From Candidatus Poribacteria bacterium (lineage in GTDB: Bacteria; Poribacteria; WGA-4E; WGA-3G), in contig CBDANF010000002.1 of the NCBI GenBank assembly GCA_965197475.1, positions 1 through 64,000 of the forward strand: DNA of 64,000 bases. The letters run 5' to 3'. How positions within the stretch are numbered: position 1 is the stretch's first letter; the number at the start of each line of letters is the position of its first letter. A program made the translations under genes and the position numbers. Shown here in pieces: positions 36,317 through 42,105 of the stretch. Under the pieces are notes generated by a model. The model saw only the letters and a list, made by a program, of their open reading frames with translations, was not told the origin of the DNA and did not search any database.

Positions 36317-37326
36317 GTTTGAAGCTCCAATGCTCTAAAAGCATATTTGGCTGTTTGCCGATGTTGGTAAACCTCTGCCTCTGGTGGAGAATTGAAGTGG
36401 AACGGACTGTCTAGTTTATCTAGTTTAGGAGCCAGTTTTTCACCGTATCCACCGATAACGTATATCTCTGATTTTTCGGGAACCTGCATCAACTCATATA
36501 GGGAAATGATGTAATTCATTTCAGAAATAGTAATTGGATTGGAAACTTTTTTGACGACCTGTTTGTGAAAACTACCGTTTGCTGTAATCGTCCAACGTAT
36601 TCCTTCCAATTTCTCATCTTGTCTCGGTAAGAATGAAATTTCCGGCTGACTGATCACCACCCATGTTCCTGCAATGATGATTGGTTTGGGATTAAACACA
36701 GAGATACAACTATGATCATGCCCGCCAGCAAAGACTGCAACACCGTTTTCAGTGTTCCCAACGATTGTTGCTGCACTCATGAATTCAGATGAAAACGGAA
36801 AGGGTTCACACTGATATTTTTGGAGTAGTTCGACTGCCCAACGTCGCTGAGAAAAGTTTAACATACCGCTATTGCCAGCGTGTGTCAAATCCCAAGTATT
36901 TATTTTAGCATTTGCAAGCCGAGATGCGATATAGGTTGAAACAGGTAATGCTGGTCCGTCAGAATAGGAAGGAAACGTTAGAAGCGATTGAAATGCTGAA
37001 CCGATATCCCGTTTGACATCCGTTGGCGTGCCTGTCTGCTCATAATAATCCTCAGATAAAGGCACACGATTATGGGTAGGTTCATAAATAATATTGTTAT
37101 AAACAACACCTTCTCCGAAACTAAGCGGAAAGATTGCTTGATACGTGTAATTGTCAAACTTAGACAAAACCTCTCTAACACATGCCTCAAGCGTCCTTGG
37201 TGATGTAATATCGGTCACCAATTTATAATCAGCGATGATGTCTAACGTATTGTTGAACAGATAGCCTTTCGTATATGAACAACCTATGTCAAGAACCAGG
37301 ATTTGCATTGCAATACCTCTGCACAA
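36313..37326 (-). CDS. Divergent, shortened FGGY-family carbohydrate kinase
   Basis: LDIGCSYTK, SFGEG, THAGNSG, GGHDH, AGTW, IGG; 337 aa versus the usual ~480. Confidence 0.65.
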   Translation of the reverse strand: MCRGIAMQILVLDIGCSYTKGYLFNNTLDIIADYKLVTDITSPRTLEACVREVLSKFDNYTYQAIFPLSFGEGVVYNNIIYEPTHNRVPLSEDYYEQTGTPTDVKRDIGSAFQSLLTFPSYSDGPALPVSTYIASRLANAKINTWDLTHAGNSGMLNFSQRRWAVELLQKYQCEPFPFSSEFMSAATIVGNTENGVAVFAGGHDHSCISVFNPKPIIIAGTWVVISQPEISFLPRQDEKLEGIRWTITANGSFHKQVVKKVSNPITISEMNYIISLYELMQVPEKSEIYVIGGYGEKLAPKLDKLDSPFHFNSPPEAEVYQHRQTAKYAFRALELQT

Positions 37327-37529
37327 AACTAAAATCTCTTGTAATCACCTTATGTTAACTTACTATTCCTATGATAAAACAGGTATTATCGCGTCTAATG
37401 TATAGTAGTAAATTTACTTCTATTATTTATAGTTTGTATCAAATGACCCCATGAGTTATACTATTAGTATTCGTTAAACTAACGGGTAGATGTCCTCGGA
37501 TCCCCGATAATCTATTCATGGAGGTCAAT

Positions 37530-38327
37530 ATGAACCGCAAGAAGGATACCGCCTACGGTATCAATCGACTGGAATCCAAGAATGCCAGAGCCGCGATTAT
37601 TCAGAAGATTTCAGCAGACTTTAATCTAATGCCTCTCGTTGCTGAAGCCTACTATAAACAGATTTCTACCTACTTTGAACAACACGCCGATGTGCAACTC
37701 ACATCAGGGCAAATCTGCTACGAGGCAGTCGCCGCTGAGGAACCCGCAGGCAAACACATCGCTTTAGCGAAAAAAATCTCCTGTCGACTCAAACTCAACG
37801 ATGTTGAAGCCGACCTTGAAGTTTTAGCGACTTATGGGCTCGCAGGTCTCAGACAGCATCGGATCCTCCGATTGACCCAAGAAGCTTATGACCAAGAAGC
37901 CTTGCTGAGTTATGAGGATTTGGCGGTGTTATTAACTACCAGTCCTGCCACCGTCAAACGCGACATCCGAGCGTTGAAGCAGTCCGGCTATTTCGTGATG
38001 ACGCGCGGGGCGAAACACGACATGGGCCCGGGACTGTCTCATAAGACGCAGATTCTTGAGTTGTCCTTCAAAGCATACACCTTCACCGAGATTGAGCAAA
38101 AGACGAACCACTCCGAACGGGCCGTCTACCGCTACTTGAGGGACTTAACACAAGTCGCCACGCTCCATCATCAAGGTTTTCCTAACGCACAGATACGGCT
38201 CATCACTCATCTCTCTGACCGGCTGATCCGCGAGTATCTCTCGCTGTCCGAGGAATACCAACACACCGATCGCATGACCCAACTCCTTCACCCAGAGCCC
38301 GTGGAGAAAAAAAAGGAGGAACTCTGA
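37530..38327 (+). CDS. DUF1670-like protein A (multiple HTH-like segments)
   Basis: RLTQEAYDQEALLSYEDLAVLL.TS..TVKRDI; TRG..HDMGPG.SHK; HS..AV.RY; GGAGG RBS. Confidence 0.8.
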   Translation: MNRKKDTAYGINRLESKNARAAIIQKISADFNLMPLVAEAYYKQISTYFEQHADVQLTSGQICYEAVAAEEPAGKHIALAKKISCRLKLNDVEADLEVLATYGLAGLRQHRILRLTQEAYDQEALLSYEDLAVLLTTSPATVKRDIRALKQSGYFVMTRGAKHDMGPGLSHKTQILELSFKAYTFTEIEQKTNHSERAVYRYLRDLTQVATLHHQGFPNAQIRLITHLSDRLIREYLSLSEEYQHTDRMTQLLHPEPVEKKKEEL

Positions 38328-39211
38328 TGAGCAAACCTTTGACGCGCACGCAAATCAACGAGAAAAAGTTCAGACGCATCAACGATAAATCGCTACGACA
38401 GTTGCTGATCCACCGCTTTCTCAATGACTATGGTTATGACAAAGGCGAAGTCACTGCCACCGCCATTGTTGATGATATTCTTAAGACCGTTGAAGACTAT
38501 TTCGTGATTACCCTTCCTTTGGAGAAACTCGCCACCGGCGATCAACTCCCGGATGAGCGTTTCTTGAGTTATGGACAACTCGTTTGGATGGCCGTCCCTA
38601 TTGAAGAGCATCCAGAAAGAGGAAAGTCCATCGTCAAAACCCGCATGAAACCCATCATCCTGACTTACCTCGCCGCAGAGGATATTGAATCCTTTCGCAA
38701 CGGTTTCACCTCCCGGCAATTGCGGATCAATCGCTTGGTCCGCTGGTGTCATCAAGCTTATGACCAAGGGGCATTATTGACACAACTCGACTTGGCAGTT
38801 TTGCTCAATGTCTGCGATGCCGTTGTCTGTGATTATGTTAATGAATGGCAAAAAACCACTGGAGAACTCTTGCCCACCCGTGGCAATATCCATGACTTAT
38901 CGGGGGCTATTACCCATAAGAAAGAGATCATAACCCTCTATCTTCAAGGACATCTCACCCCCAGGATTGCCGCAAAGACCAAACACTCTAAGGAGGCAGT
39001 TGACCGATACATTCGCGATTATGAGAGCGTCAAAGTCGTTCGGAAAGCAACCGCAGATATTGATAAAATCTCACAGATTACACGACTTTCTAAACGCGTC
39101 ATCTCTCAATATCTCGACCTCATACCGCAGCACCAACTCCAAGCCATAGATGCAGACCTTGCCAATTCAGACTCAAACGATGAAGCCACTCACCAAGGAG
39201 AAGCCCAATGA
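38327..39211 (+). CDS. DUF1670-like protein B
   Basis: QAYDQGALLTQLDLAVLL; PTRGNIHDLSGAITHK; HSKEAVDRY; overlaps the stop of gene A. Confidence 0.8.
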   Translation: MSKPLTRTQINEKKFRRINDKSLRQLLIHRFLNDYGYDKGEVTATAIVDDILKTVEDYFVITLPLEKLATGDQLPDERFLSYGQLVWMAVPIEEHPERGKSIVKTRMKPIILTYLAAEDIESFRNGFTSRQLRINRLVRWCHQAYDQGALLTQLDLAVLLNVCDAVVCDYVNEWQKTTGELLPTRGNIHDLSGAITHKKEIITLYLQGHLTPRIAAKTKHSKEAVDRYIRDYESVKVVRKATADIDKISQITRLSKRVISQYLDLIPQHQLQAIDADLANSDSNDEATHQGEAQ

Positions 39212-39278
39212 GACCCTAATCCTATGTTCCCGACGAACTTTACTTCGCAAAACCGGGGCAGGTGCCTTGAAAATATGG

Positions 39279-39307
39279 TTGACAACCGCTACTGGTTTTG
39301 CTATACT
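39279..39307 (+). promoter_or_regulatory. Near-consensus sigma70 promoter inside the right end of the DUF1670 element, pointing outward
   Basis: TTGACA, 17 bp, TATACT. Confidence 0.7.
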
Positions 39308-39438
39308 TTAGACACGTTTATCGCTAAACGCATCATTTCTCAAAGAGGATGCTCGCGATCCCAACGCAACCCACTCATTAATGATCGCTGGGAAGCCAAT
39401 AAACATCAACCTTCCAGATATCCTATGGTCATTTGATA

Positions 39439-42105
39439 CTATTTAATGATGACTAATTTTCTCGTCTGTTTAGATGTTGGCGTGGACAATTCGTAAAAGT
39501 ATAGACCACTTGCGGCAGCTTCCCCAAATTCGTTAGAGCCATCCCAATATGCGGCTTTCCCACGACTGATATAAAACCCTGACGTTTGATGTCCAATGAA
39601 GAGTGTCCGCACAGTCTCACCTGCAGTGTTATATACACGTATGGTAATTTCTGCATCCTCAGCGAGTTGATAAGGAATCCATGTCTCCGGATTAAACGGG
39701 TTAGGATAGTTTGCGAAAAGTTTCGTTTTCAGAGGACCACCAGCAGGCATCAACAGATTCTCTAAAAAACGTTTCACTATTGATATTTGTGTAGCATCAT
39801 CAGACAATTCTTCAATTTTTTCGTAAAATGCATGGAGAAGTGCAATGTAATGATCTGAAAGGGAGTAGATATCGGTGGCTTTAATTTTGGGAATGGGTGT
39901 TTGAGGTGGTGCTGCAGTGCCATTCTGGTTTTCTTCAATACTCTTAATTACCAAAATGACATCTTGAAGATCCACTTTTCCATCTTTATTTGTATCATAC
40001 TTCGAATTTGAAGGGGGGCTTTCTCCAAAATGAGCGACAATTACAAGTAGATCAATAATATCAACTTGTCCATCTAAATTAACATCACCCGTGAGTAACG
40101 TTTGAATTCCATCTTCAACTACACGTAACACTTGGTTCACCTCAACATCCTTTAACTTTTGAACAATACCGCTTGGCCAATTGATAATCAATTCATTGAC
40201 CACCTCATTCTGTCCAAGCCCAAAATGGATACGTTTCTGGTCTTGCTGAGACCAGTGGATCCCTCCGTTACGTTCGCGAAGCTGAGTTTTGCCATCAGGT
40301 GTTGTTGCGAACAATCTCGCACCGATTCCATCTCTATTTGAAACTTTCCCTTCTAAATCTATCTGAAGCCAATTGTTTCCACTCCCTACGTTGCGATAGA
40401 GTTGGTCGGGTCCATTGTTATATGGGTAGACACCTCTACCATTGGTTACAAATAGGTCAAGGTAACCATCTAAGTCGTAGTCCCCCATTGTAACGCTCAT
40501 TCCTCTTCCTTCCGTGTTTGCTTCTGCACCGCCTGCTCCAGCAACTTGAATGAAAGAACCATCACCTTGGTTTTCATACAATTGGTTAGGGAGATTTACA
40601 GCACTATTTGAACGTACTATATAGAGGTCAATATCCATATCGTTGTCGAAATCTCCTGCTGCAACGGAACGTGCCTCAACTGCCTCAGTAAAAGGAATTT
40701 TCTGGAAATAGTTTGGTGGAGTCGTAATACAAAGAACAGAATTTGGTTGGTAAACGAGATCAGAGTAAGAAAAGTTTATAGGTTCTACCTCTACTATTGG
40801 GTTTTTTGATGATATGAGTGCCTCAAACCCTGTCCAAGTTGTGTTAGAAGAAGGCATTGTGTGGTATAACACAGTCCACTGAGTTGAATCTGGGTCATAT
40901 CCTACATAAGTTCGCCATTTCTCGTTTTTTGGACGAGCAGCCAACCCGACAACCCTTGGATCAGTTGGGTCAAGTACAAATGTGAAGGACGAAACATTCC
41001 GCTCCCGATTTGTTTGGATGTATTCTCCATCAAAAGCATTTACATTATGTGCTTCTTTTCCGATTGCTAAGTGGAGAAATTGAGATGCCCAATCGGAATG
41101 AACTTCAAATTTGACTTTTCCATCTGTCTTAAAACTAAAACCTTTCTCACCGACGTTAATTATAACGTGTACCTTTATCCTATAAGGATTAGTTTCAGTC
41201 TCTTGTAAATCGCCTGTGTTTTGTATATTCTCTGCTTCGGAAGTGTCAATGAAGGAGCGATAAACACCACATGCTAGAAACGCATCTGGGAGCAGATCCC
41301 CATTGAAATCGGCAAACGTAGCATCCTGTACATTATAAATATTAGGAAAATTAAGTGTTTCTGTTATTTCATTAAAGGGTGAAATAGATGTATCATATAC
41401 GCGTTCAGGATATGAACTTTTACCTATAAAGAGTTCCATATTTCCATCGTTGGTGACATCAGCAAGTTGTGCTAACGCAGCACCTTTTTCAATATGAAAA
41501 AACAATTGTTCATTTACAATCTCAAATCCTCCGTTAGTTTGTGCAAATATTGATGGGGTTACGGGGGTACCTGTTTTGTCATTTTGACTTATCCCAGTGA
41601 TAAGGAGATCCAGTTGTCCATCACCGTTCCAATCAAACCATAGAGGTGATCTTCCTCGAAGAAGCGGCATGTCAATACCAAATGCAGATGCACGCTCAAT
41701 TAGTTTACCATTTTCATTGACATAAAAATGATTAAAATGTGTTATGTTTGAACGGTTAACTCCGCCACCTCCCCCACACAAGACAATCAAATCTTGGTCA
41801 CCGTCATTATCAAAATCTGCCCATGCAACGCCATGTGTGTCCGCAAACGGAAATGCATTCCATACCTCGTCAATAATATCCGTAAATGTACCATCCTGAT
41901 TGTTACGATAGAGACTTGGTTTGTGTTTATGGTTCGTTGCCCATAAATCCAGATATCCATCTCCATCAAAATCCCCCCATGCGTTTCCCCAACTTTCACC
42001 GATGCGCGTGATTCCTGCTTGATGTGAAACATCTTCAAATTGAATTTCACTCCACGCAGTAGGGAGCAGCCAAAAAACAAACAACGACAAAATTAAAATT
42101 CGCAT
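39439..42105 (-). CDS. Secreted FG-GAP / ASPIC-UnbV (CRTAC1-like) protein with dockerin-like and FlgD-Ig module
   Basis: Repeated WGDFDGDGYLDL / DFDNDGDQDL; SNRDGIGA; HFGLG; WPSG; NYPNPFNPETWIPY. Confidence 0.9.
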   Translation of the reverse strand: MRILILSLFVFWLLPTAWSEIQFEDVSHQAGITRIGESWGNAWGDFDGDGYLDLWATNHKHKPSLYRNNQDGTFTDIIDEVWNAFPFADTHGVAWADFDNDGDQDLIVLCGGGGGVNRSNITHFNHFYVNENGKLIERASAFGIDMPLLRGRSPLWFDWNGDGQLDLLITGISQNDKTGTPVTPSIFAQTNGGFEIVNEQLFFHIEKGAALAQLADVTNDGNMELFIGKSSYPERVYDTSISPFNEITETLNFPNIYNVQDATFADFNGDLLPDAFLACGVYRSFIDTSEAENIQNTGDLQETETNPYRIKVHVIINVGEKGFSFKTDGKVKFEVHSDWASQFLHLAIGKEAHNVNAFDGEYIQTNRERNVSSFTFVLDPTDPRVVGLAARPKNEKWRTYVGYDPDSTQWTVLYHTMPSSNTTWTGFEALISSKNPIVEVEPINFSYSDLVYQPNSVLCITTPPNYFQKIPFTEAVEARSVAAGDFDNDMDIDLYIVRSNSAVNLPNQLYENQGDGSFIQVAGAGGAEANTEGRGMSVTMGDYDLDGYLDLFVTNGRGVYPYNNGPDQLYRNVGSGNNWLQIDLEGKVSNRDGIGARLFATTPDGKTQLRERNGGIHWSQQDQKRIHFGLGQNEVVNELIINWPSGIVQKLKDVEVNQVLRVVEDGIQTLLTGDVNLDGQVDIIDLLVIVAHFGESPPSNSKYDTNKDGKVDLQDVILVIKSIEENQNGTAAPPQTPIPKIKATDIYSLSDHYIALLHAFYEKIEELSDDATQISIVKRFLENLLMPAGGPLKTKLFANYPNPFNPETWIPYQLAEDAEITIRVYNTAGETVRTLFIGHQTSGFYISRGKAAYWDGSNEFGEAAASGLYFYELSTPTSKQTRKLVIIK

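What the first reader, a model, noticed from the sequence alone, without database searches (positions are those of the whole stretch)
39279..39436. Strong internal promoter and structured ~120-nt RNA at the right end of the DUF1670 element
Seen: TTGACA-17-TATACT after gene B, then short stems (cgttta/taaacg, gcatc/gatgc, gcgatc/gatcgc, tccca/tggga) up to the IR. The 70-aa ORF here starts upstream of the promoter and looks non-functional. Inference: this may be an element-encoded ncRNA, analogous to IS110 bridge RNA or IS200/605 omega RNA, or an antisense promoter firing into the FG-GAP gene. An 8-mer TTAATGAT (39378-39385) also occurs in the right flank (39443-39450), which may be chance.
Basis: partly seen in the sequence, partly recalled or inferred. 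Interest (0 to 1): 0.7.

Follow-up and report, generated by a model that had tools for sequence, protein, structure and literature searches.

The report
Outward promoter ending a DUF1670 element
The right tip of a small, undescribed jumping gene in a sponge-symbiont genome carries a conserved outward-pointing promoter and a short folded leader RNA; it looks like a regulatory add-on of this lineage, not an RNA guide that chooses insertion sites.

Summary
The promoter is real in sequence (TTGACA-17-TGcTATACT, 39279-39307). A single match is only weak evidence, because 14 of 300 shuffles give one. However, its hexamers, the extended -10 and the spacing are kept in 24 of 26 related right ends.

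The roughly 125 nt behind it are more conserved than four-fold sites of gene B. They show no codon periodicity. They hold a 5' hairpin with compensatory changes, plus three further stems with kept pairing but little covariation.

The element (37426-39439, two DUF1670 genes) has 20 copies in this genome. 18 of the 20 sit on the stop codon of genes with a conserved secretion tail, always in one orientation. The transcript therefore leaves the element antisense to the host gene.

The bridge-RNA or omega-RNA reading is not supported:
- Nothing in the RNA covaries with the flank.
- The repeated 8-mer is private to this copy.
- An outgroup element with the same ends and the same kind of target has only 24 nt between gene B and the terminal repeat.
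- Actinomycetota and Chloroflexota relatives also lack room for the module.

The module probably arose by duplicating the 3' part of gene B. RNA-library contigs cover it, but give no strand or start site. The scan had already found DUF1670 elements on other DNA.

The parts
37424..37425 (.). TA of the target, left copy. The right copy is at 39440-39441.
   Evidence: Empty orthologous sites in three relatives read ...aattTAtttt.... TA precedes the element in 16 of 18 full copies and CA in the other 2.
37426..37435 (+). Left-end extension YTTATAGTTT, lying outside the left inverted repeat.
   Evidence: Present in all 18 full copies and in all 25 relatives' left ends.
37436..37448 (+). Left terminal inverted repeat GTATCAAATGACC.
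   Evidence: 13-bp perfect inverted repeat with 39427-39439.
37518..38327 (+). Gene A, a DUF1670 protein. The likely start is the ATG at 37530, which follows a GGAGG.
   Evidence: PF07900, E 6.4e-59.
38327..39211 (+). Gene B, a DUF1670 paralogue.
   Evidence: PF07900, E 1.9e-61. The model has pLDDT 85 and matches only HTH-type folds, with Z up to 6.4.
39212..39278 (+). Spacer between gene B and the promoter.
   Evidence: Identity to distant group III relatives is 0.47-0.58, about background, so it is not constrained there.
39279..39307 (+). Outward sigma-70-type promoter: TTGACA, 17 nt, TGc, TATACT.
39314..39314 (+). Inferred transcription start, 7 nt after the -10.
   Evidence: Inference from promoter geometry only. 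It has not been observed.
39315..39330 (+). 5' hairpin CGTTTA-TCGC-TAAACG at the start of the transcript.
   Evidence: Covariation at two pairs. G-U to A-C ratio is 9:3 in close relatives and 20:9 in 27 sequences.
39330..39352 (+). Second hairpin: GCATC/GATGC with an apical TTCT/AGAG.
   Evidence: 91% of cells paired. In the apical part G-U to A-C is 9:0. No change on both sides.
39359..39393 (+). Long-range stem TCCCA (39359-63) with TGGGA (39389-93).
   Evidence: One covarying pair. In distant group III it is replaced by AGCCA/TGGCT three columns off, with 5 of 5 pairs in 6 of 7 sequences.
39374..39385 (+). Internal direct copy of the terminal repeat (CTCATTAATGAT). In group III it reads CTCATTTGATGAT.
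   Evidence: Read from alignment A1.
39383..39422 (+). Hairpin before the terminal repeat: GATcGCTGGgAAG with CTTCCAGatATC. The loop holds AATAAACATCA.
   Evidence: 87% paired in 15 sequences and 83% in 27. G-U to A-C is 8:20, so this is no evidence for the + strand RNA.
39427..39439 (+). Right terminal inverted repeat GGTCATTTGATAC. Its last base completes the host gene's new TAG stop codon.
39439..42105 (-). Host gene (FG-GAP/ASPIC, dockerin, secretion-tail domain) whose stop codon is occupied by the element.
   Evidence: Pfam. Orthologues without the element are seen.

Best explanation
The last roughly 165 bp of this poribacterial DUF1670 insertion element are a lineage-specific regulatory add-on. 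They consist of a strong outward-facing promoter and a roughly 125-nt non-coding leader that begins with a stabilising 5' hairpin.

The RNA starts near 39314 and runs through the right terminal repeat. It leaves the element antisense to the 3' end of the host gene whose stop codon the element occupies.

I take it to serve the element's own regulation in this head-on arrangement. It would oppose, or pair with, host transcripts that now read into the element against genes B and A. It does not select targets.

Shown: conservation of the promoter, selection on the leader, absence of coding, the 5' hairpin, the fixed orientation, and absence of the module from outgroup elements.

Inferred: that the promoter fires, where the RNA ends, and what the RNA does.
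For: Promoter conservation:
- The hexamers, the TG and the spacing are kept while the spacer sequence changes. The -10 block is present in 26 of 26 right ends and a TTGnnn -35 in 24 of 26.

Selection on the leader:
- The leader is 0.78-0.98 identical where four-fold sites of gene B are 0.62-0.76.
- For distant group III it is 0.62-0.70 against 0.32-0.49, while the spacer upstream of the -35 drops to 0.47-0.58.
- There is no codon periodicity, 17/21/18.

Structure:
- The 5' hairpin covaries.
- On 27 sequences fitted to a three-hairpin model, 82.6% of cells pair against 31-50% when slid.
- 8 pairs change on both sides, and the covariation score is 0.189 against 0.127, reached in 0 of 500 shuffles.
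- Fold z-scores of the + strand average -2.1 over 25 sequences.

Geometry and specificity:
- All 20 right junctions in the genome have the same orientation. 18 of 20 abut a conserved secretion-tail gene end.
- The covariance model finds the module only at these 20 ends in the genome.

Expression:
- Contigs of four metatranscriptome runs from four studies cover genes A and B and the right end up to 39443/39444.
Against: - No transcript start, end or strand has been seen. The RNA libraries were available only as contigs, and DNA carry-over cannot be excluded.
- RNAalifold finds no consensus fold on the mixed alignment and no compensatory pairs in the close group.
- Group III sequences fold no better than shuffles, and the minus strand is nearly as structured overall, with mean z -1.7.
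- The terminal hairpin's mismatches favour the other strand, 8:20.
- The structure-fitted alignment leans towards the model, and it misaligns the short group II at the 5' end.
- The outgroup element lives in the same head-on context without the module, so shielding cannot be essential.
- Sequence-level conservation of the leader is not required by a pure shielding role.
Confidence: 0.4

Rival explanations
1. State-dependent promoter. The promoter exists to transcribe genes A and B only when the right and left ends are joined, in an excised circle or a head-to-tail tandem. The conserved leader is then part of that mRNA's 5' UTR.
For: - The promoter points at the junction.
- The left end's own candidate promoter (TTGTAT, 17 nt, TATACT, read) fell below the scan threshold and overlaps the left repeat.
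- The left end carries 10 extra bases beyond the repeat.
- The TA(Y)TT at the left junction resembles the TATTT target. That would fit recombination between a circle junction and the target.
- Junction promoters are an established device in IS3-type and IS110-type elements (search listing and abstract starts of PMC3219604 and PMC13626964).
Against: - No circle or tandem junction was seen in the genome or among the joints in RNA contigs. The latter is no proof of absence.
- The promoter is complete and would fire in the integrated state too.
- A transcript crossing the junction would form a 13-bp hairpin from the two repeats.
- The outgroup element lacks the module.
Confidence: 0.2
2. DNA-level function. 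The conserved stretch holds subterminal binding sites for the HTH-only DUF1670 proteins, namely the internal copy of the terminal repeat and the palindrome before it. Transcription is secondary or regulatory for end activity.
For: - An internal direct copy of the terminal repeat lies about 55 nt inside the end.
- The terminal hairpin shows conservation without + strand wobble bias, 8:20.
- Both strands fold about equally well.
- Both proteins look like multi-HTH DNA binders.
- The module looks like a duplicate of the gene B 3' part, which may originally have overlapped end sites.
Against: - This does not explain the promoter footprint or the covarying 5' hairpin.
- The outgroup element has only 24 nt between gene B and the repeat.
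- One RNA-library contig joins 37470 to 39419, keeping only the last 21 nt of the right end.
- Many truncated right ends exist. Their mobility is unknown.
Confidence: 0.2
3. Relic. The stretch is a duplicated piece of gene B plus the right end, drifting without function.
For: Window 39282-39376 aligns to gene B 39047-39139 (score 42, z 4.9, 0 of 200 shuffles). The core is 18 of 20 identical.
Against: - It is more conserved than four-fold sites of gene B.
- The promoter elements are invariant across 25 aligned ends.
- The similarity to gene B is significant only in the window's own lineage, with z below 1 in the 10 other elements tested.
Confidence: 0.1
4. Guide RNA. The RNA programmes target or donor recognition, like a bridge RNA. 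Alternatively, it reads into the flank to give a guide, like an omega RNA.
For: - The RNA would run across the end into the flank.
- Targets are sequence-specific on the right side only.
- The hairpin loop AATAAACATC matches the common flank AATCAACATC in 9 of 10 positions (read).
Against: - The only positions that vary among 18 copies (39379, 39382, 39412 and 39421, among others) split by subfamily, not by flank.
- By my estimate a 9/10 match is expected 0.1-0.3 times by chance over the comparisons made.
- Group III elements with one loop type sit in different targets.
- The outgroup element has the same ends and target without the module.
- There is no DEDD, RuvC or other catalytic fold.
- Rfam gives no match.
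Confidence: 0.04
5. Small protein. Either the 70-aa ORF on the + strand, or the 20-38-aa ORF on the minus strand that spans the module, is the functional product.
For: A minus-strand ORF is open in 19-20 of 25 elements. Two indels in the close group are multiples of three.
Against: - There is no three-base periodicity in any phase, 17/21/18.
- ORF lengths and ends differ between groups.
- The amino-acid changes read are non-conservative.
Confidence: 0.03

Closest known systems
IS10/Tn10 pOUT and RNA-OUT (details recalled; papers seen only as search listing and abstract starts: PMC5006887, PMC4513863)
   Same: A complete, strong promoter inside an insertion element, close to one end and pointing outward. 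It makes a short RNA that begins with a stable stem-loop.
   Different: RNA-OUT overlaps the 5' end of the transposase mRNA. Here the promoter sits at the far end from gene A, and the only built-in antisense partner is host transcription entering the element. No pairing with the gene A start region stood out.
Insertion-element outward promoters that make antisense RNA over a neighbouring gene, such as the IS-driven antisense RNA in Bordetella pertussis (PMC11774165, title and abstract start only)
   Same: The promoter in the element end fires into the adjacent host gene in antisense.
   Different: Here the orientation relative to the host gene is fixed by the element's site choice (20 of 20 junctions). 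The transcribed leader itself is under selection.
Junction or circle promoters of IS3-family and IS110-family elements, and Pcirc-type promoters of integrative elements (PMC3219604 and PMC13626964 as listing and abstract starts; scan note e1-1231948)
   Same: An outward promoter at the right end would face the element's own genes once the ends are joined.
   Different: Classical junction promoters are split between the two ends, whereas this one is complete 130 bp inside. No joined form was seen.
IS621 bridge RNA and IS200/605 omega RNA (recalled; scan note e1-3177988 cites PMC11208160)
   Same: A non-coding RNA encoded at an element end, next to the terminal repeat.
   Different: No matching recombinase or nuclease, no guide-target covariation, absent from outgroup elements, and no Rfam match.
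Tn7 insertion at attTn7 through TnsD (recalled; named by scan note e1-3003129)
   Same: This applies to the element as a whole. It shows orientation-specific insertion next to the conserved 3' coding end of a gene, recognised on one side only.
   Different: The element is tiny, with two HTH-only proteins. It inserts on the stop codon itself and targets a gene family rather than a single gene.

Membership tests
Sigma-70-type promoter | -35 and -10 hexamers near consensus with 16-18 nt spacing | tested here: met
   11 of 12 matches, 17-nt spacing, and TG before the -10.
Sigma-70-type promoter | Hexamers and spacing conserved in relatives while the spacer sequence varies | tested here: met
   The -10 block is present in 26 of 26 right ends and a TTGnnn -35 in 24 of 26.
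Sigma-70-type promoter | A mapped transcription start | not testable with these tools
   Only contigs of RNA libraries were available.
IS110-family bridge RNA | Adjacent DEDD/Tnp recombinase | tested here: not met
   The element's only genes match PF07900 and HTH families in Pfam.
IS110-family bridge RNA | Loops complementary to the target and donor that change with the target | tested here: not met
   The variable RNA positions follow subfamily, not flank, in 18 copies. One group III loop type occurs at different targets.
IS110-family bridge RNA / any Rfam family | Match to a curated covariance model | tested here: not met
   0 matches at E up to 1 for 37200-39700.
IS200/605 omega RNA | Partner TnpB or IscB nuclease gene overlapping the RNA | tested here: not met
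   No such family appears in Pfam for A or B.
IS200/605 omega RNA | The RNA continues past the right end to take a guide from the flank | not testable with these tools
   The geometry allows it, but the 3' end of the RNA is unknown.
IS10 RNA-OUT-like antisense regulator | Overlap with, or pairing to, the transposase mRNA start | tested here: not met
   The promoter lies 1.8 kb from the gene A start on the same strand. In duplex prediction the only clear element is the 13-nt terminal repeat.
Pfam DUF1670 (PF07900), genes A and B | Score above the curated cut-off | tested here: met
   199 and 208 bits against a cut-off of 25.
Known transposase or recombinase catalytic folds (protein B) | Structural match to a catalytic domain | tested here: inconclusive
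   No Foldseek match at E up to 0.001. The best VIA Z is 6.4, all on HTH-type domains over residues 128-247. Other parts of the protein were barely tested.

The most novel reading that the evidence does not exclude
The read-out RNA carries the conserved leader plus whatever flank it runs into. In 18 of 20 copies that flank is the antisense of a secretion-tail coding end shared by many paralogous genes. The RNA could act with the HTH-only DUF1670 proteins to mark similar gene ends for new insertions, or to police occupied sites. That would be RNA-assisted homing in an element with no recognisable catalytic protein. Absence of the module from outgroup elements makes it at best an accessory of this lineage.
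Probability: 0.04. Interest if true: 0.9.

Novelty: new variant of a known kind. Interest (0 to 1): 0.4.

Why it matters
Outward promoters and end-encoded RNAs are well known in insertion elements.

It matters for two reasons:
- It belongs to a mobile-element family for which I found no description. Searches for DUF1670 and PF07900 returned 0 papers. The family has no recognisable catalytic protein, and it lands base-exactly on the stop codon of secreted-protein genes.
- This genome gives the clearest anatomy of that family so far: 20 copies, empty sites in sister genomes, a TA duplication, and a rebuilt TAG stop codon.

A selected promoter-plus-leader that always fires head-on into the host gene is a testable handle on how such an element coexists with the gene it occupies.

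Tried and rejected
- Rfam scan of 37200-39700: nothing at E up to 1.
- RNAalifold on all 25 right ends: only a trivial 3-pair stem.
- RNA-RNA duplex prediction of the leader against three partners: the gene A leader, the A/B junction and the host mRNA end. Long, uninformative duplexes resulted. Only the terminal repeats pair clearly. 4, 35 and 152 of 200 shuffles reached the observed energy.
- Hairpin-loop to flank similarity (9 of 10): judged chance-level by my own estimate, not by a run control.
- The 8-mer TTAATGAT: private to this copy.
- Search for a mini-element (left end, 10-40 nt, right repeat) in 176 genomes: 0 matches. The joined form seen in one RNA-library contig therefore remains unplaced.
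- No joint that goes back from the right to the left end was listed. Contigs drop rare forms, so this says nothing about circles.
- Depth in RNA contigs could not show a separate abundant small RNA.
- An alignment of 20 distant DUF1670 proteins was too diverse for the locus search. A 5-protein alignment worked.
- PDB sequence search with protein B: one chance-level row. NCBIfam gave only weak HTH rows below the cut-offs.
- The outgroup L100 has a 9/12 promoter-like site inside the gene B 3' end, at chance level.
- The scan note e1-1926432 says an IS3 group shares a folded RNA with DUF1670 elements. I could not test it directly. My model finds no copy outside the 20 element ends in this genome.
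- Supplementary files of papers were not consulted.

Full report
**What is in the sequence**

Between gene B (stop at 39211) and the right inverted repeat (39427-39439) lie 215 non-coding bases. They hold TTGACA (39279-84), a 17-nt spacer, TG (39299-300) and TATACT (39302-07).

- The scan lists 5 promoter-like sites of at least 9/12 in 37200-39700, against a mean of 4.3 in shuffles. This one is the only 11/12 match.
- By my own count, a site of at least 11/12 occurs in 14 of 300 shuffles of that region. The whole window has 11 such sites. The match alone proves little.
- The single sequence folds only slightly better than shuffles (z -1.65).
- Rfam has no match.

**The element**

A 13-bp perfect inverted repeat bounds the unit. 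Its two genes are both DUF1670 (PF07900; E 6e-59 and 2e-61).

- The genome holds 18 full copies at 92-100% identity, plus two internally deleted ones. That makes 20 right and 20 left ends.
- All copies carry ten more bases, YTTATAGTTT, outside the left repeat. All are followed on the right by TATTT.
- Three sister genomes have the orthologous site empty. It reads ...aattTAtttt..., the reverse complement of Lys-stop.
- The element therefore spans 37426-39439 and sits in a TA that is found on both sides. TA precedes 16 of 18 full copies and CA the other 2.
- Its last base rebuilds a TAG stop codon for the host gene.
- A strict pattern of mine flagged 13 of 20 right flanks. Reading the translated flanks, 18 of 20 end in ...YFY.L.AG.F.ATRKM.I.K*, the tail of a secretion-type C-terminal domain. 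The other 2 have stops in frame.
- Orientation is the same at all 20 junctions. The outward promoter therefore always faces the host gene head-on.
- Earlier notes of this scan describe the same behaviour for DUF1670 elements in other genomes. Here I confirmed it independently.
- Searches for DUF1670 and PF07900 found no paper.

**Is the promoter conserved?**

PF07900 occurs in 46 of 176 genomes of the phylum.

- From 30 loci I recovered 25 further right ends. One locus had no recognisable end, and four lacked a full gene B hit.
- The block TGnTA[TC]A[CA]T is present in all 26 ends.
- The -35 hexamer reads TTGACA in 14, TTGATA in 3, TTGACC in 1, TTGGCA in 5 and TTGGAA in 1. It is weak in L032 and was not assessable in L029.
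- In the 25-sequence alignment the invariant columns upstream of the start are exactly the hexamer and TG positions. The spacer sequence differs between groups and its length stays the same. This is the footprint of a used promoter.

**Is the transcribed part constrained, and how?**

Against the window:
- Four-fold degenerate sites of gene B are 0.62-0.76 identical in the close group I and 0.32-0.49 in the distant group III.
- The stretch from the inferred start to the repeat is 0.78-0.98 and 0.62-0.70 identical, respectively.
- The spacer upstream of the -35 falls to 0.47-0.58 in group III.

It is not coding:
- Variable columns by phase are 17/21/18.
- The 70-aa ORF is not kept.
- A 20-38-aa ORF on the minus strand, open in 19-20 of 25 elements, falls under the same lack of periodicity.

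**Structure**

- RNAalifold gives nothing on the mixed alignment. In group I it gives only invariant or one-sided pairs.
- Counting named structures on 15 group I sequences:
Scored together with the terminal hairpin, its covariation score is 0.150 against 0.109, reached in 1 of 500 shuffles.
  - A long alternative fold plus the terminal hairpin is 86% paired against 33-52% when slid, but without covariation.
- In group III the fourth stem is replaced by AGCCA/TGGCT, three columns off. It is fully paired in 6 of 7 sequences, and each is reached by 2-4% of shuffled regions. These sequences are related, so this is roughly one event.
- A covariance model of three hairpins, realigned on 27 ends, gives:
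  - 82.6% of cells paired against 31-50% when slid;
  - 8 pairs with changes on both sides;
  - a covariation score of 0.189 against 0.127, reached in 0 of 500 shuffles.
- That alignment is fitted to the model, and it misplaces the short group II at the 5' end.
- Wobble against A-C counts favour the + strand for the 5' hairpin (20:9) and the small apical hairpin (15:3). They do not for the terminal hairpin (8:20).
- Fold z-scores average -2.1 for the + strand and -1.7 for the minus strand. Group III is near zero.
- Several stems are mutually exclusive.

In sum, a covarying 5' hairpin is well supported. The remainder is conserved pairing potential of uncertain strand.

**Is it a guide?**

- Among the 18 copies the few variable positions (39379, 39382, 39412 and 39421, among others) separate two subfamilies and do not track the flanks.
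- Group III elements with one loop type lie in different targets. Three copies in three genomes sit in the loop of a palindrome.
- More telling are distant relatives found with a 5-protein alignment:
  - An Actinomycetota element of 1.73 kb, with six copies, has about 85 nt after gene B.
  - Chloroflexota elements have an estimated 50-130 nt.
  - L100, on a 2.5-kb contig labelled Pseudomonadota, has proteins 63% and 57% identical to A and B. It has the same ends (TTTATAGTTTAGGTCAAATGACC ... GGTCATTTGATAC) and the same kind of flank (TATTT, then ...LVLMK* in reverse). It has only 24 nt between the gene B stop and the repeat.
- The module is therefore an addition of the poribacterial branch. It is not needed for finding this target.
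- Protein B models well (pLDDT 85). It matches only winged-helix and sigma-region-4-like HTH domains, with Z up to 6.4. I saw no catalytic partner for a guide.

**Origin**

- Window 39282-39376, from the end of the -35 to about +62, aligns to gene B 39047-39139 (score 42, z 4.9, 0 of 200 shuffles).
- The core is 18 of 20 identical.
- In a shorter test, 7 of 13 group I and II elements hit the same place in their own gene B.
- Over the full module, the other 10 elements tested are not significant.

The module thus probably began as a duplicate of the 3' part of gene B plus the end, and was then recruited.

**Expression**

Fourteen RNA-library runs hold part of the stretch. I laid four, from four studies.

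- Contigs cover genes A and B and the right end up to 39443/39444, where flanks diverge.
- These are contigs. They give no strand, start or level, and DNA carry-over is possible.
- One contig joins 37470 to 39419, a derivative that keeps only 21 nt of the right end. It was not found in 176 genomes.

**Other context**

- The right junction (repeat plus TATTT, up to 1 mismatch) occurs in 115 of 176 genomes, with 0 hits for the reversed control. That is far more than the 46 genomes with DUF1670 genes.
- I fetched 20 such places out of the several hundred listed. By eye, 6 keep about 60-100 nt of the right end. Most of the rest keep only about 13-25 nt next to ordinary genes.
- In this genome the covariance model hits only the 20 element ends.

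**Verdict**

This is a real, selected outward promoter with a non-coding, partly structured leader. It is specific to one branch of an undescribed insertion-element family and always fires antisense into the occupied host gene.

My odds for its role:
- Regulatory RNA or read-out that handles head-on host transcription: 0.4.
- Promoter for the element's genes when the ends are joined: 0.2.
- DNA-level protein sites: 0.2.
- Relic: 0.1.
- Guide: 0.04.
- Small protein: 0.03.

Noticed in passing
window 37426-39439; own genome, 20 copies (L001-L022): The whole DUF1670 element is a site-specific insertion sequence. It duplicates TA, carries 10 extra bases beyond the left repeat, and rebuilds a TAG stop codon. 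It occupies the stop codon of secretion-tail genes at 18 of 20 copies. I found no paper on it.
   Followed up: partly
phylum genomes; loci L065-L084: The right junction occurs in 115 of 176 genomes, but DUF1670 genes in only 46. Many sites keep only 13-100 nt of the right end beside a secretion-tail gene. How these stubs arise is unexplained.
   Followed up: partly
window 37470 joined to 39419 in run X6: An RNA-library contig (depth 235) joins the left end to the last 21 nt of the right end, with four other letters between. This is a possible mini derivative. It was not found in 176 reference genomes.
   Followed up: partly
L023, L024, L036 (three genomes): Group III copies lie in the loop of a palindrome, GAAACCGAGTTT ... 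AAAACTCGGTTTC, instead of at a gene end. This is a second kind of target that shares only the T-TA-TTT core.
   Followed up: no
L002/L005 and L006/L007 in the own genome: Two copies share a right flank but not a left flank, and two others share a left flank but not a right one. This suggests recombination between copies or duplicated targets.
   Followed up: no
proteins P0133, P0135, P0142, P0143: Proteins of 930-950 residues with three DUF1670 stretches exist in public data. These are fused forms of the family.
   Followed up: no
window 39312-39410, minus strand: A 33-aa ORF (20-38 aa in relatives) spans the module on the strand of the host gene and is open in 19-20 of 25 elements. It shows no codon periodicity.
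   Followed up: yes
window 39047-39139 versus 39282-39376: The promoter and the first 60 nt of the leader align to the element's own gene B. This points to origin by partial duplication.
   Followed up: partly
L093-L096, L101, L110 (one Actinomycetota genome): Six nearly identical 1.73-kb DUF1670 elements have a conserved right flank, TGCGCGCGTTCGG-like. In this phylum the AAACTAT extension lies at the right end instead of the left.
   Followed up: no
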